Shown here: positions 1,843-27,945 of the stretch, one piece after another
Numbering within the stretch: position 1 is the stretch's first letter
Layout: each line of letters begins with the position of its first letter
Assembly: GCA_046706745.1 (NCBI GenBank)
Contig: JBJKPC010000034.1
Coordinates: forward strand, 18,263 to 82,262
From: Candidatus Kryptoniota bacterium
GTDB taxonomy: Bacteria; Bacteroidota; Ignavibacteria; Kryptoniales; JAKASW01
Reading direction: 5' to 3'
Length of the DNA stretch: 64,000 bases
Program-made: the position numbers and the translations under genes
The notes under the pieces: generated by a model
Database searches by the model: none
What the model was told of the DNA's origin: nothing
What the model saw: the letters and a program-made list of their open reading frames with translations, nothing else

Positions 1843-1845
1843 TTC

Positions 1846-3492: not shown

Positions 3493-3573
3493 AATGGAGG
3501 GCCTGCCTGCCTTTTAGGAGAGAGGTTGTCCGGCCGTAAGTACGATTCACCACATAACAGGGAGGAGAACGAA

Positions 3574-3984: not shown

Positions 3985-4028
3985 AGCTAGGTCAATCAGA
4001 GAGAACGATCGAGGGGAGGAGATAGCCA

Positions 4029-8818: not shown

Positions 8819-8825
8819 GATAGCC

Positions 8826-10553
8826 TCACATGACCTGATATTCCGCCATACGGGCTATTGCGTCGAGAAGCAGGAGCAATTTGTCCCTAACGGCGTTTCG
8901 GTTGGTTACGTTGGTTGGATCGTTCGTATAAAGTGACCAAGCGGCAGTCCACTCGTAATCGGGTAGCTGGTCCAGCATAACTTGTTTGAGATAGGCGGTC
9001 TGAGTAGCCGAGAGAGAAATGCCAAGCATGTGGCTGATGATCCCGGCCAGGAGAGCATTTGGATCTTCGGGCGAAGGGAAGGAAGCCGCATAGGCCAGCG
9101 GATCGACTATCAACTGGAACGAGCTGCTGTCTATGCCGTTCGCACTGATAACCCTGGTCGCAAAACTCGAACGAGGCGGCAGCGTATCGGTATTGATCCA
9201 TAACTGGTAATAGTTTGGATCTATGTAGTACGCCTTCCAGCCGGCAACATCCGGAGTATCGAGCAGGTCCATGCCGTTCGACGCCATGAGGCCCCGCACG
9301 TAATTCCACGAGGAATAAGAGGCGACCGTTCCGGAGGGAATTGTCGCCTGCAGTGAGCGCAGGAGACCTGCATGAAAGTCGGCCGGAGACTTTATCATCG
9401 CTCCAATGAACCCGGCTGCGGAGCTGTCAAAGAAGTGCTGGCTGCCCAGAAGCTGTTTCAGAACAGGTCCGATTTCATAAGAGTTCGAAATTAGAGTATC
9501 GGCAAGGGGACCGATAATGTTCTGTTCGATCGTGTCGTCAATCGTCGAAAACACAAACCATCTGTAAAGCTTCCTGCATATAAACCTCGCTGTCTCGTTC
9601 TGGTTGAAAATCATGTCTATCAGCTGGTCGGTCTCATTGGCCCCCGCTGATCCTGTTTGTCCCTTGATTACGGTATTCTGGTAGTGGGCAGAAAATTGTT
9701 TATCGGTGGTGTCGTGCTTCGTCGGATCGAATGAGGAAGATAAGGTGATACGGTTGTCGATCCAGCCTGTCAGCACTCGCGATGCGGCTTTGACGTCCGC
9801 TTCCGTGTAATAGGTATAATCGCCGGGCGCGATCTCCGGTCCCTTTCCGATTGTGAACAGTTCCTGCAGCTCCCGGCCATAGTTCTCGTTTGCGCTCGCC
9901 TTGGTATTGGTGTCGCCGTTCAGGTAGACCAGCATTGCCGGGTTTGTCGTTATAGACCTGGTTAGAACCTTGAAATTCCCATACGCGTTGCGGCGTAGAA
10001 GGTCAAGGTACTGGTACATGTAGCACGCATCCTTGACGGTTGAAGTTTGCACCGAAAAGTGATTGTGCCAGAAAAGCGTCATCTTCTCCCTCAGGGAAAG
10101 TCCCTGCGATATCATCAGGCCGAGCCACCAGGCTTTGAGAGAAATCTCCCATGAATATTCCTGCCTGCCGTTGTACTGTTGCTGAACCCAGGACTGGTTG
10201 AACATTGCGTCGGCCTGATTGAAGTCTACCGGCGGAGACGGAAGCGGCGGATCCGACACAAGCTGGTCCACCACCCCCTGTGCCGACTGCCCGACGACGG
10301 CGCTGATCTCGGTGTGAGTGGGTCCAAACAGCGTGCGGCGAAGAAGATGTGCCGCGTGCTGGTAGTCAAGCGGTGCAGTGTACGGGTCGAGCCCCAAAGT
10401 CGATACTCTCCTCCTGCCGGCTCTCGTCGTGGATGAATTCACAGAACTTGCCGAAGAGACGGCCGAAGAAAGTTCGGACCTGATGCTTTTCACATCACGG
10501 TTCAGCTTCCTCACCGCACCCTGCGCTTCATCTATAAAGGATCGGCGATTCAT
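8826..10553 (-). CDS. DUF1800 family protein
   Basis: HLLRRTLFG, LREKMTLFWHNHF, PAMLVYL, NENYGRELQELFTIG, IKSP; GGAGG RBS before MNRRSF; usual pairing with DUF1501. Confidence 0.9.
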   Translation of the reverse strand: MNRRSFIDEAQGAVRKLNRDVKSIRSELSSAVSSASSVNSSTTRAGRRRVSTLGLDPYTAPLDYQHAAHLLRRTLFGPTHTEISAVVGQSAQGVVDQLVSDPPLPSPPVDFNQADAMFNQSWVQQQYNGRQEYSWEISLKAWWLGLMISQGLSLREKMTLFWHNHFSVQTSTVKDACYMYQYLDLLRRNAYGNFKVLTRSITTNPAMLVYLNGDTNTKASANENYGRELQELFTIGKGPEIAPGDYTYYTEADVKAASRVLTGWIDNRITLSSSFDPTKHDTTDKQFSAHYQNTVIKGQTGSAGANETDQLIDMIFNQNETARFICRKLYRWFVFSTIDDTIEQNIIGPLADTLISNSYEIGPVLKQLLGSQHFFDSSAAGFIGAMIKSPADFHAGLLRSLQATIPSGTVASYSSWNYVRGLMASNGMDLLDTPDVAGWKAYYIDPNYYQLWINTDTLPPRSSFATRVISANGIDSSSFQLIVDPLAYAASFPSPEDPNALLAGIISHMLGISLSATQTAYLKQVMLDQLPDYEWTAAWSLYTNDPTNVTNRNAVRDKLLLLLDAIARMAEYQVM

Positions 10554-10902
10554 AGGTGGTCCTCCTCCTGTTGTGGACTGAAACAACTTATTTTCACGCA
10601 GAATTCTTGTGGTCGGCACGCATGCGGTGTGCAAACCTCCCCTCCTGGCTCGCTCATGGGAAGGCTGACGCAGCCTTCCTCTACCTCGAATGGGTAACAC
10701 CTACAGGCAGGTATTTTGTTCCGCAGCGGGAGAATGGAAATTAGGGGGAATACAGATATGCCAAGGCCGTTCAAATGATGAGAATCGAAGGCGAATCCAC
10801 GGATTGTGCACCGAGGGTGGTCCGCCTCCGATTAGACCGACAATTCCGAGCTGAACTGCGGCCTTGCCCAGCCGACCGGTCAGCTCCGAAAGTTCAACAC
10901 CT

Positions 10903-12631: not shown

Positions 12632-14749
12632 TTACTTCATCAGCAACATTTTCCTGATGATGACATGGCCGCCAGCGGCCAGTCTGTAGAAGTATACTCC
12701 GCTTGCAAGCTGTGACCCATTGAACCGAACCTCGTAGCTCCCGGGGCTCTTTACTCCGTTGACGAGAGTTTTCACGAGTCTGCCAAGCACATCGTAGACC
12801 TTCAGACTCACCAATCTAGAACTACGAACCCCGTATTGTATAACCGTCGTGGGATTGAATGGGTTTGGGAAATTCTGTGAAAGAGAGAAGGTTTCAGGAA
12901 CTGGATTTGCGCTCCCGTTGACTTCCGTGATCATCTCCGGCAGCGGCCTACGCCACACACCATTGCTATTTCCGCTGCCCGGCGCGAGCCCGACAAATAG
13001 GTAGTCGCCGTTAGCAGCTATCGAAGTTATCTGGCATCCAACAGGCAAACCTTCACTAACATTGCTCCATGTACTCCCCGCGTTCTTAGAAAGGAATACT
13101 CCGGCGTCTGCCCCCACAAAAATGTTCGCCCCTTCGGTCACAAACCCGCCGATTTTGGAATTGCCCATTCCATCGTTCAAACCGCTCCTCGTCCATGTCC
13201 TGCCGCTGTCGGCCGAGACCGCAATCCCCTCCCCATCCGTTCCGGCGATCAGCGTATCACCGATGAGGGCCAGTGACACGAGTGGATAGATCCCTATTTC
13301 TGCAGCGGACCATGTCGTACCGTTGTTCGACGTGCGATAGACGTAGGATGTCGTTTGATTCGAGATGTTAACTCCGGCAAACACTAGTCCAAATCCTGCC
13401 GCTAGTGCCACAATGGTATTCGAAGGTAATCCGACCGAGGTCCACGTTTTCCCGGTGTCGCTGGACAAATAGACGCCACTGCTCGTTCCGGCATAGAGGT
13501 CGCTGTCTGTGGAAGCAAGCGCATAGGTGTAGTAGGGTGGATTGACGCCGGCGGGCTTCCACCTGTTGCCGCCGTCAGTTGAAGAGTATAGAGGATTGAA
13601 CGCGCCGTACTTCGCGTAGAATAGTTGCGTTCCGCAGAATCCCAAAACACCGGCACCACTCAGGACGGGTCCGGTAGACCAGTCGGCCCCCTCGTTTGTC
13701 GACACATATATTCCCGCTGAAGAATCTGTAGCAAGATCTGAAGTATTGACCGCTATAATGTTTGTTCCAATAGCCGCCAGAGACGACACGAACGCGCGGC
13801 TCATAGCGGAAACAGTCAGTCCGGCCGATTCCCAATGCGAGCCGCTGTCGGTTGAACGATACATCCCGGCGCCCGTGCCCGCAAATACGTCCGGTCCCAA
13901 TGCGCCAAGTGCAGTAACGATCGTGTCCGCAAGGCCGCTGCCAATCCCTTCCCAGGAGTTCCCGTTATCACTCGAACGGTAGAGCGCTCCCATAGTGCCG
14001 ACAACGACATCCTCCCCGCTCATCGCAAGCGCAGTGACTCCCTCTATACCGAGCCCGAGCCCTCCGCCAATTGTGGTCCACTTAATCCCCGCATCTGTTG
14101 ACCGGTAAAGCCCCCTCGGACCTCCCGCGAAGACGTTGTTTCCACTGACGGCAAACGTCGATATGTACATACTGTCCACTGACCCCCAACTCACTCCGCC
14201 ATCGGTCGAATACGACAGAACATCGTTGGATGCAGCAAGTATGGTTGATCCGGTAAACGTCACCGCGTTGATTCTCAAACCAAGGAGCCCCGTAGTGGTC
14301 CAGGTCTTCCCATCGTCAGTCGACTCGTACAGCCCGCCAGATAAGCCGGCAAGGAGTTTACTCCCGTTATCGGCCAGACTCACGCTTCCGATCCCGCCTG
14401 GCCCTCTCAGTGTTGAATCGACTTCCTCCCAGGTACTTCCAAAGTCAGTGGTGACAAAAATGCCGTATGAATTCCCCGCGAAAATTGCTCCATTTCCGAC
14501 CGCCAGTGAGAAACTTCCCGAAGAAGTGGGGAGTGCGCTGTCGATACTTCCCCATTTCGCACCTGCGTCCGTTGATAGATAAACGCGGTGGTCCGTCGAT
14601 GTTCCTGCGACAATATCACCGTCAATGAACTGAATGGCAGTGACAGGATACGCGAGCGCAACCCCAGTCTGTGTCCATTGGGCGTGAGCCCCCATACTAC
14701 AAAAATTCAAAACAACAAGAACTGTGATGAATAAACTCGTGCTTTTCAT
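12632..14749 (-). CDS. T9SS-secreted Asp-box/BNR beta-propeller protein (YCF48/sortilin-like repeats)
   Basis: GGAGG RBS, signal MKSTSLF...AHA-QW; many (Y/F)xSxDxGxTW motifs; CTD SQNFPNPFNP...KMLLMK. Confidence 0.9.
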   Translation of the reverse strand: MKSTSLFITVLVVLNFCSMGAHAQWTQTGVALAYPVTAIQFIDGDIVAGTSTDHRVYLSTDAGAKWGSIDSALPTSSGSFSLAVGNGAIFAGNSYGIFVTTDFGSTWEEVDSTLRGPGGIGSVSLADNGSKLLAGLSGGLYESTDDGKTWTTTGLLGLRINAVTFTGSTILAASNDVLSYSTDGGVSWGSVDSMYISTFAVSGNNVFAGGPRGLYRSTDAGIKWTTIGGGLGLGIEGVTALAMSGEDVVVGTMGALYRSSDNGNSWEGIGSGLADTIVTALGALGPDVFAGTGAGMYRSTDSGSHWESAGLTVSAMSRAFVSSLAAIGTNIIAVNTSDLATDSSAGIYVSTNEGADWSTGPVLSGAGVLGFCGTQLFYAKYGAFNPLYSSTDGGNRWKPAGVNPPYYTYALASTDSDLYAGTSSGVYLSSDTGKTWTSVGLPSNTIVALAAGFGLVFAGVNISNQTTSYVYRTSNNGTTWSAAEIGIYPLVSLALIGDTLIAGTDGEGIAVSADSGRTWTRSGLNDGMGNSKIGGFVTEGANIFVGADAGVFLSKNAGSTWSNVSEGLPVGCQITSIAANGDYLFVGLAPGSGNSNGVWRRPLPEMITEVNGSANPVPETFSLSQNFPNPFNPTTVIQYGVRSSRLVSLKVYDVLGRLVKTLVNGVKSPGSYEVRFNGSQLASGVYFYRLAAGGHVIIRKMLLMK

Positions 14750-15162
14750 CGTAACCTCCCGCTCTTGCCGGAATATACGAGAGCTAAGTCGAAGTACAAA
14801 TGTAGCCTTCAGTCTCTTCACGTGGTCGGCGTGTCCCGCTGTCCCGATTGATTTCAGGCGTTCGTTTTCCCGGGGATGCCGCAACTATTGGTTGGTAAAA
14901 ATGGACTATTAACCTATCGGAAGGCAAGGACCCCCTCAAGCCCCTATGCACCAATTCACAAACTCAGCCACGCGCTTGACCCGAATCCGCCGATCAGGCG
15001 CCGCCGCTTTTCTCCCAGCTGTCCGCTGCGGGATCGCCAGATTGGCCGGCGCATCTTTCCACCGCCTGCCGGCAGCCCCTTCGATACAGGTTCTCAATCG
15101 GCGACATCAAACCCCTCCAGTCCGATGAGACTGAATGCCGACGGCTGAACGCTTGCGTAGGA

Positions 15163-15756
15163 CTAATTGAACTGATATGCCCCTATCAAGGACGAAGCCA
15201 GTTTGGATTCCAGTCCGATCGTTCGACGGTAGGTCGCCTGACCGGGTTGGTAACCATTCGCCTCGAAGCAGGGGAAGTAGATCTCATATGTGGTCCCTTC
15301 TCCGGCCTTGCTCCGAACTTCCATACGGCCGTTGCATTCTTCTACTATCTCGTTGACGACGGACAGTTCCCTTCCCTTGCCTGCTCCATTCCCTCCAGCT
15401 GCCGAGTTGGAGTCAAGCACGCTGTCAATCGAGGAATTATCCGTCGCGCTGCCGGTGAACGTAACCGACAACATCACGGAGTCATCACTTCCGCCCGCCG
15501 GAAGCGACTGAGACATGCCGGGATTGCTCTTTACACTTCTTGTGAGAATTACAAGATCTCCGCCCTCGGGCATCGAAGTGCTCGCATTGGAAAATAGGAA
15601 TGTCAGGACCTGTCCGAGGTGCGCAGGATCCGCGTACACGTCTTTAAGTCCTTCTTCGGACATGAAGTTTACGGAGACTTTCTCTCCTATTATATGCCGA
15701 AAAGATTCAAGCTGATTGACGATCAGTTGATTTAAGTCCACGTGTTTCTGTTGCAC
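15163..15756 (-). CDS. Stand-alone degenerate HATPase_c (histidine kinase ATPase-like) domain
   Basis: GGAGG RBS before GTG; DLNQLI, ADPAHLGQVLTFLFSNA..MPEGG, GRMEVRSKAGEGTTYEIYFP; G1/G2 boxes are altered. Confidence 0.65.
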   Translation of the reverse strand: MQQKHVDLNQLIVNQLESFRHIIGEKVSVNFMSEEGLKDVYADPAHLGQVLTFLFSNASTSMPEGGDLVILTRSVKSNPGMSQSLPAGGSDDSVMLSVTFTGSATDNSSIDSVLDSNSAAGGNGAGKGRELSVVNEIVEECNGRMEVRSKAGEGTTYEIYFPCFEANGYQPGQATYRRTIGLESKLASSLIGAYQFN

Positions 15757-16179
15757 GGGAGCCTCCTTTGAAGTCTTAGATTGTTCTTGGTAAATGGCTC
15801 AGGTTCTTCATGAAGCCGCGTCCGGCGATCATCGATTCAACACCGGATGAAGCTCTAACAAAGATCCCGGTCATTGGGTAACGAGTACCCTGCTTTTCAA
15901 AGAATGGATCGCTCCCTATCTGTTCCCTGGCGGGTCTCTCCTGATGATCACCACCCGCCGCTGCAGTGGCTGACTAGAACAACAACTTATTTCAAGTGAC
16001 TCTTGGACGACTCTCTTGGCTGCATTATATATAATGCAATCGGATTCCGATGTGACGTTCGTCACCGTATGAGGCCCCGTGCACTCGTACGGGAAAAGGG
16101 ACTATACACCTGCAAAAGTCCCCGGCTAGTGCAATTTGAACCGATCACCGGATTGAAGGAATGGCCTCGAAAACGAGGA

Positions 16180-16209
16180 GTCCCGCCGTGATTCCTCATG
16201 GCGGGACCC
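16180..16209 (-). terminator. Hairpin just after the 16231 stop
   Basis: GTCCCGCCGTGA-ttcc-TCATGGCGGGAC stem. Confidence 0.45.
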
Positions 16210-16230
16210 GACTAGAATTGCTTAACCGAA

Positions 16231-17715
16231 TTATTTCATCAACAGGAGCTTCTTCGTTTCCGAATATGCACCCGCTGTCATTCGGTAGAAGTATACTCCG
16301 CCTGCCAGGTTCGATCCGTTGAATTGGACCTCGTAGCTCCCCGGCCTCTTTACTTCGCTGACGAGAGTCTTCACGAGTCTTCCAAGAATATCGTAAACTT
16401 TCAGACTTACAAACTCCGAACTACGAACTACGAACCACGAACCACGAACCGTATGACCGTCGTCGGATTAAACGGGTTGGGATAGTTTTGATAAAGCACC
16501 CAGTTTGATGGCACAGGGATATTCCCGACCATCCCCGTCCCCGCAGAATACGTTTTGACTTTCAATGTACCATTTTCAATAAATGCAACGGTCGGGCTCC
16601 CCCGATAGGTGGTGAGTGAAATCGATGTTATGGTGGAAGTACTATCATCTTCGACCGGGCCGTCATAATAGACCAGATCTTTGCCGTCATACCTGAATAC
16701 TGACAATCTTGGGTTCCACCCGGTATCGCCATAGGCTACATAAAGGTTCGAGTCCGCGGTCGCCGCTGAAATATCGAAGTACTTTCCCTGAGCCGGCCCG
16801 CTTGCCACCATTACCCAACTGGAGTCATGCCACTCGGCGATGTAGAGCGTGTCCAAGTCGGTCCATATCGCGGTCGGTATTCCGCCACGAAGAACTACTT
16901 GCTGAGGTTGAGGATCGCCTGTACTATAAAGGTCGCAGAACGGTTTGTCATTATAAGGCCAACCGCTGCATCCTGATCCGCTTCCGTACGCATATAGCCA
17001 ACCGTTCTCGCCATAGAATGTGACCACCCGCTGTCATCCGCAGTGAATTGAGGGTTGACAACAGTGCCGATATTTGAACTGTGGCCATTCATTATACAGC
17101 CGTAGTCGGACGGAGGACAATGCACACAGACTCCCGTTTGCCCGAATCCGGGGGTGTATTCTATGTAGCTCTTGTCCTTCTCAGCAATCGCCACATGAAC
17201 ATTATATTCCTTATAAAGCGAGTTACCGACCACTCCCCACGAATTGCCGTTCTTGTCTACAGAAAACCCGTAGTGGCCGTCGCTCTGTTCCCACCCTTTG
17301 ACAACGACGCTGTCCTTGACCGCGATTTTAGGTGCGTTACAATCAATTACCTGGCCTCCCGGATCACTCCAGTTGTCTCCAGTCCATTCTCTGGTAAAGC
17401 CTACGTTATTGCCCATATCTTCAGGATGGTAATTCTCGTAAAACACAAACAGACGCTTGCGATCGCCGGCTATGGAGCATTCGTTGACTGTGGTAGTCTC
17501 CGGAGTCCCAAGAGATATCCAGGCGCCGGCATAAGAAGTGCGTTTAAGTCTGTGCTCGTCGTCTTTTGCAATTACGTGACAAGGACCCGACAAAGTCAGA
17601 AAGTTTCTGATCGCGGCCCTTTGAGATATTTGGCATCTTCCCGGCTTAGGCCATACCGCAAAAAAACGGCCCCTACCATAGAAAGCAGGATCCGTAATAT
17701 GTAACTTGTTTTCAT
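16231..17715 (-). pseudogene. T9SS cargo gene (~490 aa if repaired) broken by three frameshifts at simple-sequence tracts
   Basis: MKTSYILRILLSMVGAVF signal shifts at A7 (17660-17666); second shift at CCC (17027-17029); the CTD is interrupted by 5 heptamers (16416-16450) and an intact CTD tail (..VSLKVYDILGRLV..KKLLLMK*) continues in another frame. Confidence 0.8.
16416..16450. repeat. Heptamer tandem repeat (ACGAACY)x5 inside CTD coding sequence
   Basis: ccgaact-acgaact-acgaacc-acgaacc-acgaacc read directly. Confidence 0.9.
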
Positions 17716-17848
17716 TTTGATTACTGGCCTCACATTCCTTAAACCAGGTATGGCGTAGAAGAAGGTTTCCTCCCGCCAAGCTCGACCGAGTCGAGACGAA
17801 GCAGAAGGAAACGGTCTTCAGCCCTACCTTTGCGAGGTTTTATCGTTG

Positions 17849-19987
17849 TTACTTCATCAATAGCAATTTCTTTGCTTGAGAATAAGACCCCGCAGTGATG
17901 CGATAGAAATAAACTCCGCTCGACAAACCGCTCGCATCAAACATCACTTCATAAGTACCGGAGCTCTTCCTTTCGTTGACCAGTGTCCTAACCAACCTCC
18001 CCAGCACATCATAGACATTAAGGCTCACGAGCCCGGAACTAGGAACCGCGAACCGGATAGTTGTGGTCGGGTTGAACGGGTTGGGATAATTCTGCGAAAG
18101 AGAAAAGCCCGACGGCATTACTGGAGATTGGTGTGTGCCCGTCAATACCTGAGACCAAGGCGTTTCCCAAACTCCATTCGAAGTCCCTGCATAGAGGTTG
18201 CCGTCTTTCAGCACGAAACAGTTTGCAGGGAGATTCGACAAACCAGCATTTCTCCAGGTTGTATCGCTGTTGGCCAGGACGAAGACTCCTTCTCCAGAAC
18301 CGAACCCTATCCAGCTGTCGGCAAGAAGATAATTGTCTATAACGTCGAAACCGTTGACGTCCAGAAGATTCGGCACTTCGGTCCAGGTGGCACCGTAGTC
18401 GGTTGAATGATAGATCCCGAAACCGTACGACGCTGCGAACAGCTCGGTTCCCCTGACGGCGAGGGAATTGATCCACTTCACACCCGTATTAATTCCGATT
18501 CCGTTGTTAACAGCTACCCAGCTGTCTCCGTTGTCACCGGATCTATACACACCATGTGGAGTGGCTGCAAAGAGATAAGTTCCCAAATGTACGAGCGAAC
18601 TCACATCGGTGTTCGTGTCCGCGAGTGTCGGCAGTCCGTTACTTACGCGAGTCCAACTTGTCCCGCTGTTTGTTGATCTATAGACGCCACCCCCTCCTTC
18701 CGTGATATTCACAAGATATGGCTTGGTTGAAGCAAACATGTCGCTCCCCGCAAACACCAGCGCGGTGACGGTGGCGCCCCACTGGACCTGGTGGCGAGGG
18801 TACCAAAGGTCTCCATTATCTGACGAGTAATAGACATAGCCGTTGACATCGCCGACATACAGGGTGTCGGAGTGTAAGGTCATTGCTGTTACGTCGACAA
18901 ACTGTCTGAAATGAGAATGTCCCATCCTTTCCATCCATGTCGAGCCGCCGTCGGATGATGAAAACACTCCTCCATTTGTCCCGGCAAGCAATGAGTCCCC
19001 CTTCACCAACAGGACGTTCGTTCCATATCTCGGCAGGCCTGAGTTTGAGTTTCTCCATGTTGCGCCGTTGTCGGATGATACGAACACCCCGCTGTCTGTA
19101 ACCCCGGCGACGAGATTTCCACCGCAAAGAGCCAGAGCATTTACTTCCCTGTAGCTCGGGAACCCGTTATCAGCTTCCGTCCAGTTCGCTCCCGCGTCGG
19201 TCGACTGATAGACTCCTTCTGCGCCGCCGGCGAAAACTTTGCCTCCCGCGGCGACAATTGAATAAAAATGGTGATCGCTGCTCTGGGAGAGCCCGCCGTT
19301 GGATTCGACCCAGTTTGCTCCTCCATCGGTTGAAGAGTATAAACCGCTTGCCCAGAGGCTGGCATATAACTTCGCACCGTCGGAGGCCAGCGCGTACGGA
19401 CAACTTCCCGAGAGACCATTGTTTGCCTGAGTCCAATTTGCGCCGTTGTCGGTAGACATGAAAAGTCCCTGATCCGTTGTGCCCACATATATATTCGACC
19501 CCAATGCCATAATAGAACGAACGTAGGTGTCTTTCAGTCCGTTATTCATCTGGGTCCAGGTGGCACCGTTGTCGGTGGACATATACACGCCAGCATAACT
19601 GCAACCGGCGAAAATATTCGTACCGCTGGTAGCGAATGCATAGACGCTTTCGTTTAAAGACGTTCGAGCCCAGACCTGGCCCGAGTTTTCTTTGAAGTAC
19701 ACTCCGCTGTCGGCGGTTGCAGCGAAAACCCTGTTGCCGCAGACTCCCACCGCCTGCACATAGGTATCCGTCAGGCCGAAATTATCCACATGCCAGGTTG
19801 TTCCACCATCGTTCGTATAGCATACTCCGGCATCGGTTCCAAGGTACGTCCGTGTTGGAGTTACCGCAATTGAATACACGGTTCCGCCGTAAGGCCCTTT
19901 CTGAACCCACTGGGCAAAAGTGAATGCCGGCAGCGTCAGCACGATCGAGACCGCAACCCATATAATGAGTCGACACACTTTTTTCAT
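17849..19987 (-). CDS. T9SS-secreted Asp-box/BNR beta-propeller protein
   Basis: Signal ending TFA-QW; repeated STDNGATW/SSDGGSTW motifs; CTD QNYPNPFNP..KKLLLMK. Confidence 0.92.
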   Translation of the reverse strand: MKKVCRLIIWVAVSIVLTLPAFTFAQWVQKGPYGGTVYSIAVTPTRTYLGTDAGVCYTNDGGTTWHVDNFGLTDTYVQAVGVCGNRVFAATADSGVYFKENSGQVWARTSLNESVYAFATSGTNIFAGCSYAGVYMSTDNGATWTQMNNGLKDTYVRSIMALGSNIYVGTTDQGLFMSTDNGANWTQANNGLSGSCPYALASDGAKLYASLWASGLYSSTDGGANWVESNGGLSQSSDHHFYSIVAAGGKVFAGGAEGVYQSTDAGANWTEADNGFPSYREVNALALCGGNLVAGVTDSGVFVSSDNGATWRNSNSGLPRYGTNVLLVKGDSLLAGTNGGVFSSSDGGSTWMERMGHSHFRQFVDVTAMTLHSDTLYVGDVNGYVYYSSDNGDLWYPRHQVQWGATVTALVFAGSDMFASTKPYLVNITEGGGGVYRSTNSGTSWTRVSNGLPTLADTNTDVSSLVHLGTYLFAATPHGVYRSGDNGDSWVAVNNGIGINTGVKWINSLAVRGTELFAASYGFGIYHSTDYGATWTEVPNLLDVNGFDVIDNYLLADSWIGFGSGEGVFVLANSDTTWRNAGLSNLPANCFVLKDGNLYAGTSNGVWETPWSQVLTGTHQSPVMPSGFSLSQNYPNPFNPTTTIRFAVPSSGLVSLNVYDVLGRLVRTLVNERKSSGTYEVMFDASGLSSGVYFYRITAGSYSQAKKLLLMK

Positions 19988-20795
19988 CGCAACCTCCAGG
20001 TTTTGTTATGAAAATCTATCCACATGCTGCCCCCCGACAGGCATGTGATTTCGCCGCGTTTAGACAACACACATTCCCGAATTAGAGAAAGGAGCACTAC
20101 CTCGCTTCGAAATCTGATAGAAAAAATATTCCGGGGAGAGAAATAGCACAATCCTTGTTTTCGTGGATTTTACGCACGAAATCCATGCTCAAATGCTTCA
20201 TGGTATCCGAAATCAATCGAAATAGGCGAGGGTTGAGTCAACGGTAAGCTGTCGAGACAACGTAGTTGATCTTGGCGGATTCGTTGCCGTCACGCGAGGG
20301 ATTCTCCAAATTGATTTTCTCAAAGCCTCCCATACGCTTCATGGAAGACAATATGATGGCCGCAGCAGCCATGCCCGACTCGAACGAGATGTTCCGACAT
20401 TAACGGAACCCATTTTACACCACTCACTTAGCCCGCATTCCGGCATATGAACTCCGGTTCCGAAGCGCGAGTGAACGCATGGTTGAAGTAAGATTTTTGC
20501 AACTTCCTGGATGAGCCGCTTTCGAAGTCATGATCGATTGGGATTTAGTCGGCGAGAAAAGTCCCGCGATGTTGCGAGGGGAATTGGGAGTCTTCCGTAG
20601 TTGCAAGGCGCTCGACCCCTCTTTGATCGGATGCTTTCCAAACTTCATTGACATGATAGGGACCGTTAAACGGGAACTGCGCGAATTTGAAGAGTGTTGT
20701 CGAGTAGTCAGCCCGGGAAGTCAGGAGGCTTACAGTTTGTCAGATGCAAGAGAAATCACAAGTTTCTAAACATGCAAGGGAGGTAGAGCAGAACG

Positions 20796-23700
20796 ATGAT
20801 TCCGAATTTCATATACAAGAGTTTACCCATCTTTTTGATCGCCGCAGCTATGTCGGCGGGTACCGGCACGGTCTTTGCGGAGAAGTATCAACGTCCACAG
20901 AACCCGTCTTCGATTCCCGGCGCCGGACTCAACAAGATATTCTCGTCGGGCTCCGCTTACGGCCCGCTCGGTCAGGATCGCACGATTGCGGCCGAAGATC
21001 AGCTTCTTCTTTTCTGGAGTGAGCCGCCTTCACCCAGCAGTAACGTCAACTACGCGGCTTATCATTTTCAGATCATGAACTACCTTAACACACCATCCCT
21101 TCCGTCCAGCCAGCGGCTTTACGCGGACGGTTCGCTCACGGGAGATTCCGTCACCGATGCGGCATCAGGAGCGAAAATCCCGGCGATCGGAGGAAGCGAG
21201 TACTCGGTCATACTGGCAGGAGACATGATCGGGAGCGGTTACGACCAGCCTGTGTCCGTGTGGGAAACGTATGACTCCGCAGCTTCGGTACCGGGTTATA
21301 AGATATTCGCCGCGGCACTTACCGTGAACAGCTCCACTCTGAAATTCCAGGACAGCGGAATAACGGGTGATATCGTAGGAGCGGTGGAATCAAACACCGG
21401 CAATATACTTAACGCCCACATTCGTGCTACGATGGCGGACCTTACCGGCAGTGGCAGAAAAGATCTCGTTATCGCTTGGCAGGATTCAAACTATATTGAA
21501 ATTGCCGTCTACGGATGGAGCTCTTCGTCAGCTTCGCATCTTACGTTGCTCGGTTCGCTTTCAACGGCTGCGACAGCACCTACAACCACGACGGAATACA
21601 GCTATTTCGCGCTCGGTGCAGGAAACTTCACCGAAGACAGTACGAGTCAGATTGCCCTCGCCGGATTCAACGGCAACGGCACGTTATACATCAAACTCTT
21701 CAAGTTCGAAAACAGCGGCGCGATAGTCCCGGAGGGAGCCGCCAGTTTCCCGGCACTTTACAACGGATTACTGTCCCAAATGGTGATGGCAACGGGCGAC
21801 TTCACCGGCAACAACTACAAGGACTGCATCGCGCTCGCACTGACAGACAACGCGGATGTTGGGTCCAACAACACGGCGCTGTACATAGCCCGGCCTTCTC
21901 CAGATCTACAATCGATTTCGGTTTCCTCAGACTCGAGCGCCAAGCAGTATCAATTCCAACCTAACGCGAATCCGATGGCAGCTAGCATCGGATGCGGTGA
22001 TCTAAACGGAGACGGCAAGGACGAAATAGTCCTGGATGTCGGCAATGAGGTAATTGTATTCGAGCCTGTTCAGAACGGGAGTTATCTCACTCCTCATGAA
22101 AAGAGCAATACCTTTGTCAACGGGACGACGGATGAGACCGATTACCAGTACTCGAGCAGCTTCCTGAAAGTGGCGTCCGTAGAGCAAAGCAGGAGTGCAG
22201 ACATCACCGTCGCCCGGAACGAATACAGCGACGACGGATCCGGAAACATCTACCAGTCGCTGGACGTGGCAGTCATCGAGGCCATCGATTCGAATTTTAC
22301 TCTCAACACCGTTGCGGAAGACAACACCACTTTATCGGAGAATATCACTTACACCAGCGGAAGTGTCGGCTTAAGGCGCCATTATGCTCTTGCGCTGGGA
22401 AATTTCGGCGGGGCCAGCCTTACTCTGGGCCAACCCACTCACTATTATGAAACCGACATAACACAGCCGCTGGTAATACTGAACGCCCCGCCGGTTCAGT
22501 TTGACATATTCAACGACACCACCTACGATATATGCAATGTCTTCAACGGCGGCGGCAACTCGGGTAATTTCTCGACGACATACAGCCAGTCGACCTCCAA
22601 CACAGACATGATGGAAACAAACGTGACATCTTCATGGGGTGTGGGCGCCTCGCTTTCCGGCAGTGCCTCATATCTTGGCGCGAAGGTCGAGGCCAGCCTC
22701 AGCACTCACTACGGCCAGGATTTCAACCGCGTCAGCAATTCATCGTACACAAACACCGTCAGCGTGGATGTCAGCGCCCAGCAGGAAGATGAGATATACG
22801 CGATAGTCAATAACTACGATATATGGGAATATCCAGTTATCGACAGCGGACACGTGCGGGGGCACGTGCTCGTGACGGTTCCAAGTCCTCCGCAGGGCGA
22901 GTGGTTCGATACAGAGAGCTGGACCGCATACTCGTTTATACCGGATCATGTAGTCGGGAACGTGCTTTCGTATCTCACTTACGATTCGCTGGCCGATAAT
23001 CCATACATGATGCAGAAGATCAAAGGCTCGCTCTCCGATGGATTCGAATTGGGCACGGGAAAATTCACATGGTCCCTGACCACGAGCGATTTTACAAGCA
23101 ACAAGGTGTCTCAAACCGAGACCTTCAAGCTGAATGTCGATGCAAAGGCCACCGTGGGAGGAGAGTTCGGCGGCTTCGGCGCTTCAGTAACAGCCGGCGT
23201 AAGCGGGGACTACAGCAATTCCAATCTGACATCGCACACATCGACCGTCACCAGCACACTCGGCCTAACGGTCAATCTCAGCTCGATCAACCAGTCGCTG
23301 GGCGAGGACCAGTATATCGTCACTCCTTATTCCTATTGGGGTGACAACGGTGCTCTTGTAATCGACTACGCTGTGCAGCCGGTACTTTCTGCGCCGGGCG
23401 GCACCGAGACCTGGTGGCAGCAGCGTTACGGACACGCGCCGGACCCTGCCCTGGCATTGCCGTATCTGTACTGGCCGCAGGAAGGATTCGCCGTCCAGAA
23501 TCCGGAAAAGATCTATCAGACAAAGGAAATCTTCAACTCACCGAGCAGTGTGGCCCCCGGGGACACGATCACCACGACCATACGAATACACAACTATAGC
23601 CTCATACCAACCGATACAACCGTGCAGGTAAAGTGCTACGTCGGCGATCCAAACAGCGGCGGGACTCTCATAAAGAGCATCAACGGCGACAGCGTTTTCT

Positions 23701-24194
23701 CGACACCATCGTACATACCCTCAAGAGGCTCTCAGATACTGTCGTTCAAATGGATTGCTCCATCACAGGTGAATGCGCGATTCATTCACTCGGGAGATTT
23801 TGTCCATGTGTGGGCCGACGTCGACCCAAACGGGACCATGAAGGAAATCCATACCAACAATAACTTGGGCTGGAGTATACTCGAAGTTCCCGGTATCGTG
23901 ACAGGAGTAAACGAGGCACAGCTTCGTCCGGCACATTTCGGTTTAAGTCAGAATTACCCCAACCCCTTCAATCCTACGACGATGATTAACTACCAGATTC
24001 CTAAGGACACGCATGTTACGATAAGCATATACAATGTTCTGGGTGAGCGTGTAGCCACAATTGTCGATGGCGATGAATCCGCAGGCTACCACCAGGCCAT
24101 TTTCAACGGTGCGCGTTTCGCCAGCGGTATATACTTCTACAGGATGACGACACCGTCGTTTTCAAGAGTGGACAAGATGCTGCTTTTGAAATAG
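20796..24194 (+). CDS. Large T9SS cargo: FG-GAP repeats, Ser/Thr-rich hairpin region, CARDB-like domain, CTD
   Basis: GGAGG RBS, signal peptide; GDLNGDGKDEIV, GDFTGN, ADLTGSGRKDLV; VDPNGTMKEIHTNNN; CTD QNYPNPFNP..KMLLLK. Confidence 0.88.
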   Translation: MIPNFIYKSLPIFLIAAAMSAGTGTVFAEKYQRPQNPSSIPGAGLNKIFSSGSAYGPLGQDRTIAAEDQLLLFWSEPPSPSSNVNYAAYHFQIMNYLNTPSLPSSQRLYADGSLTGDSVTDAASGAKIPAIGGSEYSVILAGDMIGSGYDQPVSVWETYDSAASVPGYKIFAAALTVNSSTLKFQDSGITGDIVGAVESNTGNILNAHIRATMADLTGSGRKDLVIAWQDSNYIEIAVYGWSSSSASHLTLLGSLSTAATAPTTTTEYSYFALGAGNFTEDSTSQIALAGFNGNGTLYIKLFKFENSGAIVPEGAASFPALYNGLLSQMVMATGDFTGNNYKDCIALALTDNADVGSNNTALYIARPSPDLQSISVSSDSSAKQYQFQPNANPMAASIGCGDLNGDGKDEIVLDVGNEVIVFEPVQNGSYLTPHEKSNTFVNGTTDETDYQYSSSFLKVASVEQSRSADITVARNEYSDDGSGNIYQSLDVAVIEAIDSNFTLNTVAEDNTTLSENITYTSGSVGLRRHYALALGNFGGASLTLGQPTHYYETDITQPLVILNAPPVQFDIFNDTTYDICNVFNGGGNSGNFSTTYSQSTSNTDMMETNVTSSWGVGASLSGSASYLGAKVEASLSTHYGQDFNRVSNSSYTNTVSVDVSAQQEDEIYAIVNNYDIWEYPVIDSGHVRGHVLVTVPSPPQGEWFDTESWTAYSFIPDHVVGNVLSYLTYDSLADNPYMMQKIKGSLSDGFELGTGKFTWSLTTSDFTSNKVSQTETFKLNVDAKATVGGEFGGFGASVTAGVSGDYSNSNLTSHTSTVTSTLGLTVNLSSINQSLGEDQYIVTPYSYWGDNGALVIDYAVQPVLSAPGGTETWWQQRYGHAPDPALALPYLYWPQEGFAVQNPEKIYQTKEIFNSPSSVAPGDTITTTIRIHNYSLIPTDTTVQVKCYVGDPNSGGTLIKSINGDSVFSTPSYIPSRGSQILSFKWIAPSQVNARFIHSGDFVHVWADVDPNGTMKEIHTNNNLGWSILEVPGIVTGVNEAQLRPAHFGLSQNYPNPFNPTTMINYQIPKDTHVTISIYNVLGERVATIVDGDESAGYHQAIFNGARFASGIYFYRMTTPSFSRVDKMLLLK

Positions 24195-24262
24195 TGCCGG
24201 ATGTCGTCTCCGACACATTGAAGCGCAACGTGTTTTCTAGATATTGTAAGTGTACTTACTCT

Positions 24263-24302
24263 CCCCTCCCCCTCTCTTTTCACAGAGAGGGGGGGAATGG
24301 GG
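24263..24302. terminator. GC-rich hairpin between convergent genes (terminator or REP-like)
   Basis: CCCCCTCTCT-tttcac-AGAGAGGGGG. Confidence 0.4.
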
Positions 24303-24460
24303 ATACGTTCAACTGATAAAACCCTTTTTACATTGTATCTTGCGGAGGTTTGGGACGGCCCATGGACTGTGATGATTTTCCTCGCTGCAAAAAAGGAACA
24401 CCGGCAGGATCGCTGCAGGCAAGATTGAAGGCCGACAGACTCACCCAGTATCGTTCGATA

Positions 24461-25756
24461 CTATTTGAGCAAAAGCATTTTCTTCGTCGCGACATGAGAT
24501 CCGGCGACCAGCTCGTAGAAGTATACCCCACTCGGGAATTCGCTTGCATCGAAAGAGACTGAATAAGTCCCCGGCTGTTCAACCTTATCCACCAGAGTCC
24601 TGACCAATCTTCCGAGTACATCGTATACTTTCAGACTTACTGCTCCCGTACTACGAACGCCGAACCTGATAACCGTAGATGGGTTGAATGGGTTCGGATA
24701 GTTCTGCGAAAGGGCAAAATGCTCGGGTTCAGTATCCTCTCGCTTGATCCCATCTATACCACCGGCGCTCGACGTATGGAAGATTGCTCCGTTATCACCA
24801 ACCACAAATCCGTTATTCTTATTCCAAAAACTGATCGCATTGAAATTCGGCATATAATCCCGTCCGTAAGGCCACGGATACTGGTTCCAGGAGTCTCCCC
24901 CATCCGTCGACTCGACAAGTAATCCGCCTGAACCGCATGCGTATATCACCTCGGCAGAGGGTGCCGAAACAGCAAAGACGGAGCCACCTGAGATCGTCGT
25001 GTCTTCTCGCCAGGTGGTGTCTGACATCTCCTTCCGTATAATTATGCCCGAAGTAATTGCCCCGTCTTGAGCCCCGACGATGAAACCCGGTCCCCCGCCA
25101 TAAGAAAACCCGGCGTCGTATGCCTGTGAGTTCGTTTCCTGAAATTGGGCCAACGGAGACTCCGTCCAAGAGTCCTGACCCGGCTGGAGGCTACGCGAAC
25201 AGATGGAGTGCGAGGTCAGCGCATAGAGGGGGGTCTGATATATGGCGATAATTGCGCCGGTCCATTCAAAAATCTTCCGAACCCCCCACCTGCTAATCTT
25301 TTGGGCGGACCACTTCCGCCCGGTATCTGAGGTGAGGTATATCCACCCGGCATCGGCGCCGACGTAGAAGGCACCCGGCGACACGCAAAGGACCGAAAGA
25401 AGGCTGTCACTAGAAGGCACATCACAGAGCGACCACGTGGTGCCTCTGTCGGTCGTGAACTCAACACGGTGATAACCCACGATCACCCCGTTTTGGGAAT
25501 CACAAAAAGAAATGGCGCTCCAGTCATAGACAGCGCTTATGTGTGCCGTTTCATTGAACCACGTTGCGCCGGCATCAGTAGTCCGAAGAATTGCGTTCCT
25601 GCTGCCGATTACAACTGCCGTTGTCGAATCCAGCATTGCAACACCAACCAGGGCCTCCGTTGTCCCGCTGTTTTGCTGAACCCATTGCGCACGTGACGAC
25701 GACGCAAGTCCAAGAATTTGTGTCGCAAAACCCATAAACAAAAACAACATCCTCAT
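24461..25756 (-). CDS. T9SS-secreted YCF48-like beta-propeller protein
   Basis: SRA-QWVQQNSGT, ILRTTDAGATW, GFVVGDNGAIFHTS; CTD. Confidence 0.9.
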   Translation of the reverse strand: MRMLFLFMGFATQILGLASSSRAQWVQQNSGTTEALVGVAMLDSTTAVVIGSRNAILRTTDAGATWFNETAHISAVYDWSAISFCDSQNGVIVGYHRVEFTTDRGTTWSLCDVPSSDSLLSVLCVSPGAFYVGADAGWIYLTSDTGRKWSAQKISRWGVRKIFEWTGAIIAIYQTPLYALTSHSICSRSLQPGQDSWTESPLAQFQETNSQAYDAGFSYGGGPGFIVGAQDGAITSGIIIRKEMSDTTWREDTTISGGSVFAVSAPSAEVIYACGSGGLLVESTDGGDSWNQYPWPYGRDYMPNFNAISFWNKNNGFVVGDNGAIFHTSSAGGIDGIKREDTEPEHFALSQNYPNPFNPSTVIRFGVRSTGAVSLKVYDVLGRLVRTLVDKVEQPGTYSVSFDASEFPSGVYFYELVAGSHVATKKMLLLK

Positions 25757-25827
25757 GACTTTGCCTCCTTGCCGTAAACTTGGTCAAGCATTTCCTTGGC
25801 TGATTCATGTCGGAATTAAGTTTGGGC

Positions 25828-27945
25828 TCATTTAATGAGAAGAGCTTTCTTCGTAAGCGATGTGGTGCCTTCCCTTAGCGTATAAAAATACACACCGCTC
25901 GGCAAATTGCCCGAATCAAAAGTAACTGAATAGGTCCCCGGCTGTTCAACCTTATCCACCAACGTCCTGACCGATCTCCCAAGAACATCATATACTTTCA
26001 AAATGACCAACCCGGTACTCCGGACCCCGAACCTGATAACCGTCGACGGGTTGAATGGGTTCGGATAATTCTGCGAGAGCTGGAAGGCTGACGGCAGGAG
26101 ATTTTGTTCCGAGTTGCGCACCCCCGTGACGACCTCCGTCAGCGGGAAGCGCCACATCCGTCCATAAGAAGCAGCGAAAAGAGTGGAGTCACTTGCCGCA
26201 AGACTGCTCACCGGACGGTCTAAATTTGAAGCCGCGATGCCTACCGCGCGCCACCGGGTTGCAGATCCGGGTAGCACAAAGACACCGGAGCCGGTTCCGG
26301 CAAAAACATACCTGCCATGAAAGCTAAAACAGTTGACAGTCTCGTTTGAATCGAGCGGGAGCCCGGCGTCGACGCTTTCCCACTCTGCACCGTAGTCCGT
26401 CGAACGGAATACGCCGTGTCCATTTGTTCCCGCAAAGACTTCCGAGTCCCTGGCGGCTATCGTATTAAAAAAAGCCACCGGCGCTTTGACCGACTGCCAT
26501 GTTGAGCCGTTGTCGAGCGACCGTACCAGCGGACCGCCCTGGTAGATCGCGTAGACCGCCGTTGCTGTTGCAGCAATCTTCACCACATTCGCGAGGCCTT
26601 TTGCATTCCAGGTTGCACCTTTGTCCGTGGAAAGGTAGATGCCGCCCTGGCTGCACAGCCCGCAAATTCCGGCGGCCCCCAGATATAGATTATTGCCGCC
26701 GGCAGCGAGAGCGAGATACTGCACGCCCTCCGGCGAATTCCGGTTCGCAGGTTCCATCCAGGTCGTGCCGCCGTCCGTCGTGTACTCAACGCCGTCCCCC
26801 GCTGTGGCAAACACGGTCGAATCATCCGAAGCAAGTATCGGGGCCTCGGTCATGATCTGAGTCCAGGTTGATCCGTCGTCCGATGAGCGGAAGAGGCAGG
26901 TGCCGTAGCTTGCAAGGACGGTCTTTCCGTCGGTAACCAGCGAAGCGATGCCGGAAGTGCGAATGCCCGTGTTCGAAGGGCTCCATGTCGCAGAAGTTAT
27001 CGTGGAACGGTATATTCCGAAATCGAAGAAGCCGAGGATGAAGTTTCTTCCAATCGGAACGTAGGCGTCGGGACCGGCCCAGCTTGCGGGGAAGCCTCCG
27101 GCGGTCAGGCTGTCCCAGGTCGCACCGTTGTCGTCGGAAAAATAGAAGCGTTGACCGGAAGTGCTTACCATGACTTCACCCCCGTTAGCGGAGAGACTGC
27201 CGATGTCCCCCTTCGGTAAACCGGCATCCGCAGATGACCAGGAAGATCCGTCGTTCGAAGAGACAAACACAGAAAAACGAGTTGCTGCAAAAAGGTATGA
27301 TCCGTCAACCGCGAGGGAAACTATCGTGCTGTCCACGAGACCGGCCCTTGCCCAATTCGCACCGGCATCCGAAGATACGTAGACTCCGTCGCTGTCTCCG
27401 ACGAAGAAATCGTTCCCGTCGACAGCGATGGCAGAGATGCCATACAACGAACCGGTGTTGGCATCGACCCAACTTGATCCGTTGTCGGTGGAAAGGTATG
27501 CAGGCGGAGAGAGGCGCATCGTGATGAAGACGTTACGGCCTGACGCCGCAATTCTATCTATAACTCCGGTGCGCCCGGATACCCATGGGTTCGGAGGCAG
27601 TCCGTTGTTGTCGACCTTCCAGCTCGCGCCTCCGTCGGTGGAAATGCTGATCCCCTCACCTATCCCCGATCCGGCATAAAGGTAGTTGCCGCTTCCCGCC
27701 ATGCTCAATGCATACGTAGTCGCTCCGGTGCTGTCGCATGGCGCCCAGGACATACCGCCGTCTCTCGAGCTGAAGACTCCATAGCCTACTGTACCGGCAT
27801 AGACAAAGGAGTCGGTGACACCTAGAGAACAGACCGGCCCACCATCGTATGGACCGTTTGTCGGCACCCATTGCGCAAATCCCTCATTCCCAAACAGAAT
27901 GACCATGGTTGAGAGGGCCAATCCAAAAATGCATCCCTTTTTCAT
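25828..27945 (-). CDS. T9SS-secreted Asp-box/BNR beta-propeller protein
   Basis: GFA-QWVPTNGP; many SxDxGxSW motifs; CTD. Confidence 0.92.
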   Translation of the reverse strand: MKKGCIFGLALSTMVILFGNEGFAQWVPTNGPYDGGPVCSLGVTDSFVYAGTVGYGVFSSRDGGMSWAPCDSTGATTYALSMAGSGNYLYAGSGIGEGISISTDGGASWKVDNNGLPPNPWVSGRTGVIDRIAASGRNVFITMRLSPPAYLSTDNGSSWVDANTGSLYGISAIAVDGNDFFVGDSDGVYVSSDAGANWARAGLVDSTIVSLAVDGSYLFAATRFSVFVSSNDGSSWSSADAGLPKGDIGSLSANGGEVMVSTSGQRFYFSDDNGATWDSLTAGGFPASWAGPDAYVPIGRNFILGFFDFGIYRSTITSATWSPSNTGIRTSGIASLVTDGKTVLASYGTCLFRSSDDGSTWTQIMTEAPILASDDSTVFATAGDGVEYTTDGGTTWMEPANRNSPEGVQYLALAAGGNNLYLGAAGICGLCSQGGIYLSTDKGATWNAKGLANVVKIAATATAVYAIYQGGPLVRSLDNGSTWQSVKAPVAFFNTIAARDSEVFAGTNGHGVFRSTDYGAEWESVDAGLPLDSNETVNCFSFHGRYVFAGTGSGVFVLPGSATRWRAVGIAASNLDRPVSSLAASDSTLFAASYGRMWRFPLTEVVTGVRNSEQNLLPSAFQLSQNYPNPFNPSTVIRFGVRSTGLVILKVYDVLGRSVRTLVDKVEQPGTYSVTFDSGNLPSGVYFYTLREGTTSLTKKALLIK

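What the first reader, a model, noticed from the sequence alone, without database searches (positions are those of the whole stretch)
16416..26033. Heptamer microsatellite built into T9SS sorting domains: a possible secretion ON/OFF switch
Seen: right after NPFNPxTxI, five cargo genes encode the same CTD segment with degenerate ACGAACY-like heptamers: 12817-12837, 18034-18054, 24646-24666 and 26013-26033 (3 units = 21 bp, in frame) and 16416-16450 (5 near-perfect units, frameshift and TAG). Removing two units restores RFVVRSSEFVSLKVYDILGR..KKLLLMK. The other four CTDs lack this heptamer. Established: slipped-strand changes in non-triplet repeats drive phase variation, and an intact CTD is required for T9SS export. 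Inference: repeat number toggles export of an otherwise complete passenger, i.e. phase variation aimed at the sorting signal. Alternatively, a heptamer-seeding process targets this site. I know of no description of this, but could not search.
Basis: partly seen in the sequence, partly recalled or inferred. Interest (0 to 1): 0.72.

Follow-up and report, generated by a model that had tools for sequence, protein, structure and literature searches.

The report
Seven-base repeats inside secretion tags
A seven-base DNA repeat sits in frame in one flexible stretch of many bacterial type IX secretion tags; the copy that has slipped out of frame here lies in a gene with two other frameshifts, so it is likely decay of a dead gene rather than an on/off switch for export.

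Summary
The repeats are real at the stated coordinates. Period-7 structure at this CTD site exceeds synonymous-recoding and column-shuffle controls in this genome and in relatives. The switch reading fails at this locus. The 5-unit gene is not otherwise complete: it has a frameshift in the signal peptide (stop after 39 codons) and another mid-gene; an intact 512-aa homologue maps onto it in three frames. Across 201 related genomes, 5,975 CTDs are in frame; 3 are broken by heptamer-unit changes (this one included) and 7 by ±1/2-base indels. The unit belongs to a genome-wide heptamer family that also forms intergenic arrays, one beside a four-helix-bundle (S23p-like) gene. In relatives the same loop holds other heptamers and REP-like hairpins. 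Best reading: a tolerant loop likely colonised by repeats, kept in frame by selection, slipping rarely. No reads were listed. The scan noted heptamers and REPs in CTDs before, on other DNA.

The parts
16409..16450 (-). Expanded heptamer array (GGTTCGT x3, AGTTCGT, AGTTCGG, then AGTTTGT) in the CTD beta2/loop stretch; +14 nt against the standard CTD, frameshift, TAG at 16428-16430
16231..17715 (-). Broken T9SS cargo gene (signal peptide, uncharacterised passenger, type A CTD) in four pieces, with three frameshifts
   Evidence: intact homologue P0014 (512 aa) aligns in frames -1, -3 and -2
17660..17666 (-). T7 run where the signal-peptide frame (ATG 17715) leaves the passenger frame; that frame stops at 17596-17598 after 39 codons
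   Evidence: homologue N-terminus
17022..17029 (-). Second frameshift (GGGTGGTC), splitting the passenger into ORFs 16895-17779 and 16428-17027
16231..16410 (-). Disconnected 3' part of the CTD (beta3 to the C-terminal KKLLLMK), 59% identical to P0014 residues 454-512
18034..18054 (-). In-frame degenerate heptamers (RFAVPSS) in the CTD of intact BNR-repeat gene 17849-19987; individually significant
26013..26033 (-). In-frame degenerate heptamers (RFGVRST) in the CTD of intact gene 25828-27945
24646..24666 (-). In-frame degenerate heptamers (RFGVRST) in the CTD of intact gene 24461-25756; not individually significant
12817..12837 (-). In-frame segment (QYGVRSS) with two good units in the CTD of intact gene 12632-14884; not individually significant

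Best explanation
The heptamers belong to a genome-wide seven-base repeat family that occupies, in frame, the predicted end of strand beta2 and the following variable loop of many type IX secretion tags, where selection likely keeps them at a frame-preserving length, and the five-unit copy is likely a slippage product in a gene already dead or dying from two other frameshifts. Shown: the period-7 excess; the same unit in intergenic arrays; several unit families and REP-like hairpins at the same site in relatives; three frameshifts in this gene; the rarity of out-of-frame alleles. Inferred: the strand pattern I-x-[FY]-x-[VLI] puts T bases 7 nt apart and gives a two-unit seed. Three units equal seven codons and fit the strand-turn. 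The arrays then spread partly by descent or exchange among CTD paralogues and are probably refreshed from the genome's repeat pool, by slippage or conversion; which process writes them is not shown. The unit order G,G,G,A,A' cannot come from one 14-nt duplication of a three-unit array without a further substitution, so it likely records two separate slips left uncorrected.
For: Gene broken in three places: ATG 17715 frame stops after 39 codons; homologues from two same-genus genomes and six more proteins span both window ORFs; P0014 aligns in three frames. Census of 201 same-class genomes by the distance from NPFNP to the [YF][DN]xLG motif: in frame 5,975; +7/+8: 2, both +7 at heptamer arrays; +13/+14: 1, the window; -7/-8: 0; -13/-14: 0; +1/+2: 4; -1/-2: 3. 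GTDB-wide scan for three GTTCnnn units at the site: 51 loci, 50 in frame, 1 not. Period-7 excess replicates: G023, 56 CTDs, z 7.9 (synonymous) and 5.9 (column); G046+G047, 31 CTDs, z 3.0 and 2.7; units TCAGCTA, TCAGATA, TCGAATT, CAAAGTT in one register. Of 25 triple GTTY-nnn arrays in this genome, 7 are at the CTD site and 11 others lie outside long ORFs. One array follows a four-helix-bundle gene. One CTD loop shares 22 exact bases with an intergenic array. The AlphaFold model puts the segment at the end of a strand plus a 3-residue turn; PMC11285876 (passages) reports this loop variable in length and the C-terminus and loop beta3-beta4 essential. At least three other cargo genes in this genome are broken by ordinary lesions.
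Against: Two genes in other genomes lose their CTD by unit change while the passenger looks whole: G061:C29:158652, 5 to 3 units, 478 aa with an N-terminal signal-like stretch; G362:C319, +1 unit, 196 aa. Only about 13-29% of CTDs in the samples carry an array (11 of 75, 16 of 56, 4 of 31), so per array the unit-slip frequency is several-fold above the ordinary indel background. Assemblies give consensus alleles and hide minority OFF alleles. In this genome the 12 GTTC-type CTDs cluster on a tree (6 changes against 11.4 shuffled; 0 of 500 as low) and one origin is not rejected (p-AU 0.19), so repeated seeding within this genome is not shown. Only 1 of 10 four-helix-bundle genes is flanked by this unit family. 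The order of the three frameshifts is unknown.
Confidence: 0.75

Rival explanations
1. Low-rate contingency across the paralogue family: the arrays are kept because occasional unit slips switch off export of single cargoes, an advantage when a surface protein becomes a liability. The window gene is a case where the OFF state came first and decay followed.
For: Unit-change frameshifts with intact passengers in G061 and G362. Offsets +7 and +14 occur while +8 and +13 do not. The close homologue cluster of this very gene has 7 sequences, 1 joined to its CTD and 6 cut off just before it; the two read as DNA have an A-run of 6 and 8. Repeated loss of export in this family fits selection for OFF.
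Against: 2 heptamer-unit frameshifts outside the window genome against 7 ordinary +-1/2 indels in the same 54-nt stretch. In-frame arrays in the window are degenerate, with no two identical adjacent units, which lowers slippage (established knowledge of simple repeats, recalled). The homologue's lesion is in an A-run, not a heptamer, and its CTD has no array.
Confidence: 0.12
2. One reading: 16416-16450 is a working phase-variable ON/OFF switch for export of this protein.
For: The array is nearly perfect, lies upstream of the essential CTD motifs, and its length sets the frame. T9SS core genes are present (SprA, C25 peptidase, PorV).
Against: Two upstream frameshifts would have to revert as well. 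Five units is two steps from the standard length.
Confidence: 0.05
3. Assembly or sequencing error produced some or all of the three frameshifts.
For: All three sit in simple repeats; the N-terminal ORF is on record from this one contig only; no runs could be checked.
Against: Neighbouring genes are long open frames; the genome is 95.9% complete with 59 standard in-frame CTDs; the added units differ from each other in a way a single duplication would not give.
Confidence: 0.05
4. The periodicity is only a by-product of CTD amino acids and codon usage.
For: F-x-V and Y-x-L codons give two units by themselves; 2 of 4 in-frame window copies do not beat synonymous recoding.
Against: The genome-level excess survives both controls in three data sets, period 7 gives the largest excess in each, and it is confined to this segment in G000. 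Length variants come in units of 7.
Confidence: 0.03

Closest known systems
Bacterial heptamer tandem repeats (long simple sequence repeats): GGGAATC in Xanthomonas and GGGGA(C/T)T in Nostoc (PMC4692102, passages read); TAACTGA in Beggiatoaceae, cyanobacteria and some Bacteroidetes (PMC4679880, abstract and passages read)
   Same: Degenerate period-7 arrays, length-variable, many intergenic next to start or stop codons, function unresolved; the same unit family does this here.
   Different: Here a large share of the arrays sits in frame at one fixed position of a many-copy secretion tag, and several unit families use the same register. The passages read do not describe that.
Heptamer repeats upstream of the S23p (four-helix-bundle, PF05635) ORF in the Coxiella 23S rRNA intervening sequence (PMC4990558, passages read)
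   Same: Tandem heptamers beside a four-helix-bundle gene, with unit number differing between strains. This genome has 10 PF05635 matches, 5 with period-7 runs on a flank by my marking rule, no shuffle control.
   Different: No four-helix-bundle gene or inverted partner arm lies at the window's CTD array, it is not in rRNA, and only one of the ten genes has this unit family.
In-frame intragenic repeats: Rickettsia palindromic elements and GTAG/CGTC REPs inside ORFs (PMC3733652, passages read)
   Same: Short repeats of an intergenic family tolerated in frame inside proteins; GTAG-type and other hairpins fill the same CTD loop in relatives.
   Different: The heptamers are direct tandem repeats, not palindromes, and mostly replace loop codons without adding length (35 of 51 at standard length).
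Simple-sequence-repeat phase variation by slipped-strand mispairing (contingency loci; recalled, general knowledge)
   Same: A non-triplet repeat whose unit number sets the reading frame.
   Different: Contingency repeats are long and perfect and sit in otherwise intact genes with frequent OFF alleles. Here the in-frame arrays are short and degenerate, the gene is broken elsewhere, and OFF alleles are about 0.05% of CTDs.

Membership tests
SSR phase-variable (contingency) locus | Repeat unit number changes the reading frame | tested here: met
SSR phase-variable (contingency) locus | Gene otherwise intact, so that a slip restores function | tested here: not met
   two further frameshifts
SSR phase-variable (contingency) locus | Long perfect repeat tract in the ON state | tested here: not met
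   the four in-frame window copies have no two identical adjacent units
SSR phase-variable (contingency) locus | OFF alleles common among related genomes | tested here: not met
   3 against 5,975 in-frame CTDs in 201 genomes; 1 of 51 in the GTDB scan; these compare paralogues and distant homologues, not alleles of this gene
SSR phase-variable (contingency) locus | Reversible high-frequency switching within a population | not testable with these tools
   no sequencing run was listed
T9SS type A CTD cargo | C-terminal Por_Secre_tail (PF18962) domain | tested here: met
   over cut-off in the four intact array-bearing window genes and in homologue P0014; split in the broken gene
T9SS type A CTD cargo | T9SS machinery in the genome | tested here: met
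   SprA_N, Peptidase_C25 and PorV matches over cut-off; other components not searched
T9SS type A CTD cargo | N-terminal Sec signal peptide | tested here: inconclusive
   signal-like hydrophobic N-terminus seen by eye at 17715; no predictor run
T9SS type A CTD cargo | Export and CTD cleavage shown | not testable with these tools
   needs experiment
Bacterial heptamer repeat arrays | Period-7 degenerate tandem arrays dispersed in the genome, many intergenic near start or stop codons | tested here: met
   also in G061
S23p / four-helix-bundle repeat-flanked element | Array flanks a PF05635 gene as one arm of an inverted pair | tested here: not met
   no such gene or partner arm at the window array; the unit family flanks 1 of 10 such genes elsewhere
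RPE / intragenic REP | In-frame copy of an intergenic repeat family | tested here: met
RPE / intragenic REP | Palindromic stem-loop | tested here: not met
   direct repeat; no local inverted partner among the 25 of 32 inverted pairs shown

The most novel reading that the evidence does not exclude
An active repeat-writing process tied to four-helix-bundle (S23p/Avd-like) elements keeps overwriting the beta2 loop of T9SS sorting tags with heptamers across the Ignavibacteria-, Kryptonia- and Zixibacteria-like lineages. This makes the tag a mutable cassette whose unit slips, together with A-runs just upstream, uncouple individual cargoes from export: family-wide, low-rate phase variation aimed at the sorting signal.
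Probability: 0.14. Interest if true: 0.72.

Novelty: new variant of a known kind. Interest (0 to 1): 0.38.

Why it matters
The locus itself is a pseudogene, not a switch. The wider pattern has value. One loop of a secretion tag present in up to about 160 copies per genome holds several unrelated repeat families in frame, which gives a fixed, alignable site at which to study how bacterial heptamer arrays arise, an open question since their over-representation was noticed. Practically, motifs such as FVVRSSGF, YQLSAISQ and FRISNSGF in these CTDs are translated DNA repeats and should not be read as protein-level signals. If read data showed frequent unit switching, it would be a new way to regulate type IX export.

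Tried and rejected
Reads: no run was listed for 15900-18300, so allele counts could not be made; this is no evidence either way. The metagenome pattern scan gave 3 loci, none of this gene. Word-indexed protein searches found no longer homologue of the N-terminal ORF and only the query for P0003; the exhaustive search and genome search did find homologues. The single-sequence model of P0014 was unusable (pLDDT 37), so the passenger's fold stays open; Pfam names only its CTD. The control column was faulty (self-matches) and is not used. The higher synonymous identity inside GTTC loops (0.61 against 0.42) is inflated because the group was defined by its DNA, and is not used as evidence. Repeated independent seeding in this genome was tested by tree and not shown (two long-branch rows dropped in 69). 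Programmed ribosomal frameshifting at the homologue's A-run was rejected because the two alleles need opposite shifts. An inverted partner arm near the window array was not seen. The +7 copy in G182 has only 31 open codons upstream near a contig end and was not counted as an intact passenger. Offsets other than those listed (for example +-4, +-5, +-10, +-11) were not counted, and the census misses CTDs that deviate from the two anchor motifs. Literature: searches gave no paper on repeats or phase variation within T9SS CTDs (judged from listings; 25 of 58 hits listed). Term searches in PMC5524665 and bioRxiv 10.64898/2026.09.22.753630 gave nothing relevant. The library lacks most subscription journals and no supplements were read.
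Full report
Observation. Four are in frame. The fifth, 16416-16450, reads GGTTCGT GGTTCGT GGTTCGT AGTTCGT AGTTCGG, adds 14 nt and ends the frame at TAG 16428-16430; the rest of the CTD follows in another frame. TRF finds 6.0 copies of period 7. The four other window CTDs lack the unit. The genome encodes SprA, two C25 peptidases and PorV-like proteins, and the intact genes score over the PF18962 cut-off, so these are type IX sorting tags by sequence. An earlier scan note on this genome calls the lineage Kryptoniota (e1-2410347; not checked by me).

Is it more than chance? For 75 standard-length CTDs of this genome, period-7 matches over codons 8-16 total 551, against 494+-13 under synonymous recoding and 504+-13 under column shuffling. 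No other period from 4 to 12 passes |z| 1.9, and the excess is confined to this segment. It replicates in CTDs fetched without regard to repeats: 56 from G023 (z 7.9 and 5.9; 16 of 56 with at least 11 of 20 matches) and 31 from G046 and G047 (z 3.0 and 2.7; 4 of 31). These are subsets of each genome's CTDs, and paralogues are not independent. Different units (TCAGCTA, TCAGATA, TCGAATT, CAAAGTT) use the same register. Only 2 of the 4 in-frame window copies are significant singly.

The gene with five units is not otherwise complete. The ORF list already shows two ORFs, 16895-17779 and 16428-17027. A search of 61 genomes found homologues in 2 same-genus genomes, and an exhaustive protein search listed 10 proteins. 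The two genome homologues and six listed proteins align across both ORFs in two frames. The intact 512-aa homologue P0014 aligns in three frames: residues 20-242, 222-446 and 454-512. The signal-peptide-like frame starts at ATG 17715, leaves the passenger frame at a T7 run (17660-17666) and stops after 39 codons. The mid-gene shift is at about 17022-17029. The heptamer count therefore cannot control export of this protein. The unit order also needs two slips, or one slip plus a substitution (inference from the sequence). At least three other cargo genes in the genome are broken by ordinary lesions: C54:14011 by a frameshift, C37:1144 and C16:288618 by nonsense codons.

How often does unit number break a CTD? 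I counted, in the same 201 same-class genomes, the distance between the NPFNP codons and the [YF][DN]xLG codons. In frame at standard length: 5,975 in 142 genomes. +7/+8: 2, both +7 and both at heptamer arrays. +13/+14: only the window, whose genome is in the set by design. -7/-8 and -13/-14: none. +1/+2: 4. -1/-2: 3. A phylum-level sample of 261 genomes gave one +7, the same G182 copy. A GTDB-wide scan for three GTTCnnn units at the site gave 51 loci, possibly overlapping the census genomes: 35 at standard length, 11 at +15 nt in Zixibacteria-titled records with five units in frame, four other in-frame cases, and one out of frame. Out-of-frame alleles exist and come in units of seven, but they are no commoner than ordinary small indels. 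Assemblies hide minority alleles, and no runs were listed.

G061:C29:158652 has lost two of five units while its 478-aa passenger aligns full length with two intact tandem paralogues. G362:C319 has gained one unit behind a 196-aa open passenger. With arrays in roughly 13-29% of sampled CTDs, the slip frequency per array is several times the indel background, so the arrays are mild hot spots. Separately, the 90% cluster of the window gene's homologue holds 7 sequences with whole passengers: one runs into its CTD and six leave frame just before it; the two read as DNA have an A-run of 6 and 8 bases. That is the closest thing to a sorting-signal switch I found, and it involves no heptamer.

Where the unit comes from. 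The strongest period-7 arrays in the genome are mostly of the same GTTCnnn family and lie mostly between genes, often ending at a start codon. Of 25 triple arrays, 7 are at the CTD site, 11 others outside long ORFs, 4 antisense and 3 sense in other ORFs. One follows a four-helix-bundle gene; the genome has 10 PF05635 matches, 5 with period-7 flanks by my rule, mostly of other units. PMC4990558 (passages) describes tandem heptamers of variable number upstream of the S23p ORF in Coxiella. PMC4692102 and PMC4679880 (passages) describe intergenic heptamer arrays of unknown origin and cite Mrazek 2007, which I did not read. G061 also has its CTD unit outside CTDs. One CTD loop shares 22 exact bases with an intergenic array, the longest of 82 loops. 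On a tree built without the loop, the 12 GTTC-type CTDs cluster and a single origin is not rejected, so descent or paralogue exchange explains part of the spread here. The different units at the same register across genomes are what point to repeated seeding.

Why this site. An AlphaFold model of a window CTD (pLDDT 88.8) places the segment at the end of strand 15-22 and the turn before strand 26-34, which I read as beta2 and loop beta2-beta3. PMC11285876 (passages) reports that loop as variable and the C-terminus and loop beta3-beta4 as essential; a frameshift here would remove both. In 121 genomes, 399 matches have a longer spacer (some are chance matches outside CTDs); the 150 listed include GTAG-type hairpins, CCCCTC..GGGGAG hairpins and further heptamers at this loop (read by eye). 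In-frame intragenic REPs are known in general (PMC3733652, passages).

Verdict. A real, replicated pattern: a tolerant loop of the T9SS tag filled in frame by heptamer repeats. The flagged out-of-frame copy is best read as slippage in a pseudogene. I found no paper on repeats in T9SS CTDs in seven searches. Earlier scan notes report heptamers in CTD segments (e1-4502438) and REP hairpins in CTD loops (e1-5219150, e1-971112) on other DNA. New here are the frameshift census and the controls. Interest 0.38.

Noticed in passing
L002 (G023:C61) and L003 (G011:C255); proteins P0003, P0011-P0016: The homologue of the broken window gene is cut off from its CTD in 6 of 7 cluster sequences, with whole passengers; the two read as DNA have an A-run of 6 and 8 in the linker, and P0014 is in frame. 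A better candidate for repeat-controlled export than the heptamer.
   Followed up: partly
G061:C29:156884-160667 (L075): Three tandem cargo paralogues; two have five heptamer units in frame, the middle one has three and is frameshifted with an intact 478-aa passenger.
   Followed up: yes
G362:C319:7921 (L080): One extra heptamer unit frameshifts the CTD of a 196-aa signal-bearing protein.
   Followed up: yes
G151, G112, G182, G155, G159, G362, G318 (L094-L106): The same CTD loop carries in-frame REP-like hairpins of several unrelated families; G151 has 52 matches with a lengthened spacer.
   Followed up: partly
G000:C2:6361, C31:28854, C51:1944: Three GTTC-type CTDs carry a further 9-codon insert (SKIGPDRGG / SQIQPGSGR / SQIRPGRGG) right after the heptamers.
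   Followed up: no
G000:C83:6631-6678: A long GTTCnnn array lies in frame inside a membrane-protein gene unrelated to T9SS.
   Followed up: no
G000:C86:4280, C11:5552, C86:7720, C87:2197, C93:116744, C9:81589: Four-helix-bundle (PF05635) genes with degenerate repeat flanks, some as purine-rich and pyrimidine-rich inverted arms.
   Followed up: partly
window 15163-15756 (-): Lone HATPase_c fragment without the rest of a histidine kinase, just downstream of the broken gene; the region may be decaying.
   Followed up: partly
window 88-6416 (+): Multiheme cytochrome c with 219-nt internal repeats, followed by a 548-aa unknown protein and a CcmF-like gene.
   Followed up: no
window 7238-10700 (-): DUF1800 / DUF1501 pair in which the DUF1501 protein carries a T9SS CTD.
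   Followed up: no
window 34777-34796: Another short period-7 repeat (GCAAAAG, 2.9 copies) outside the CTD genes.
   Followed up: no
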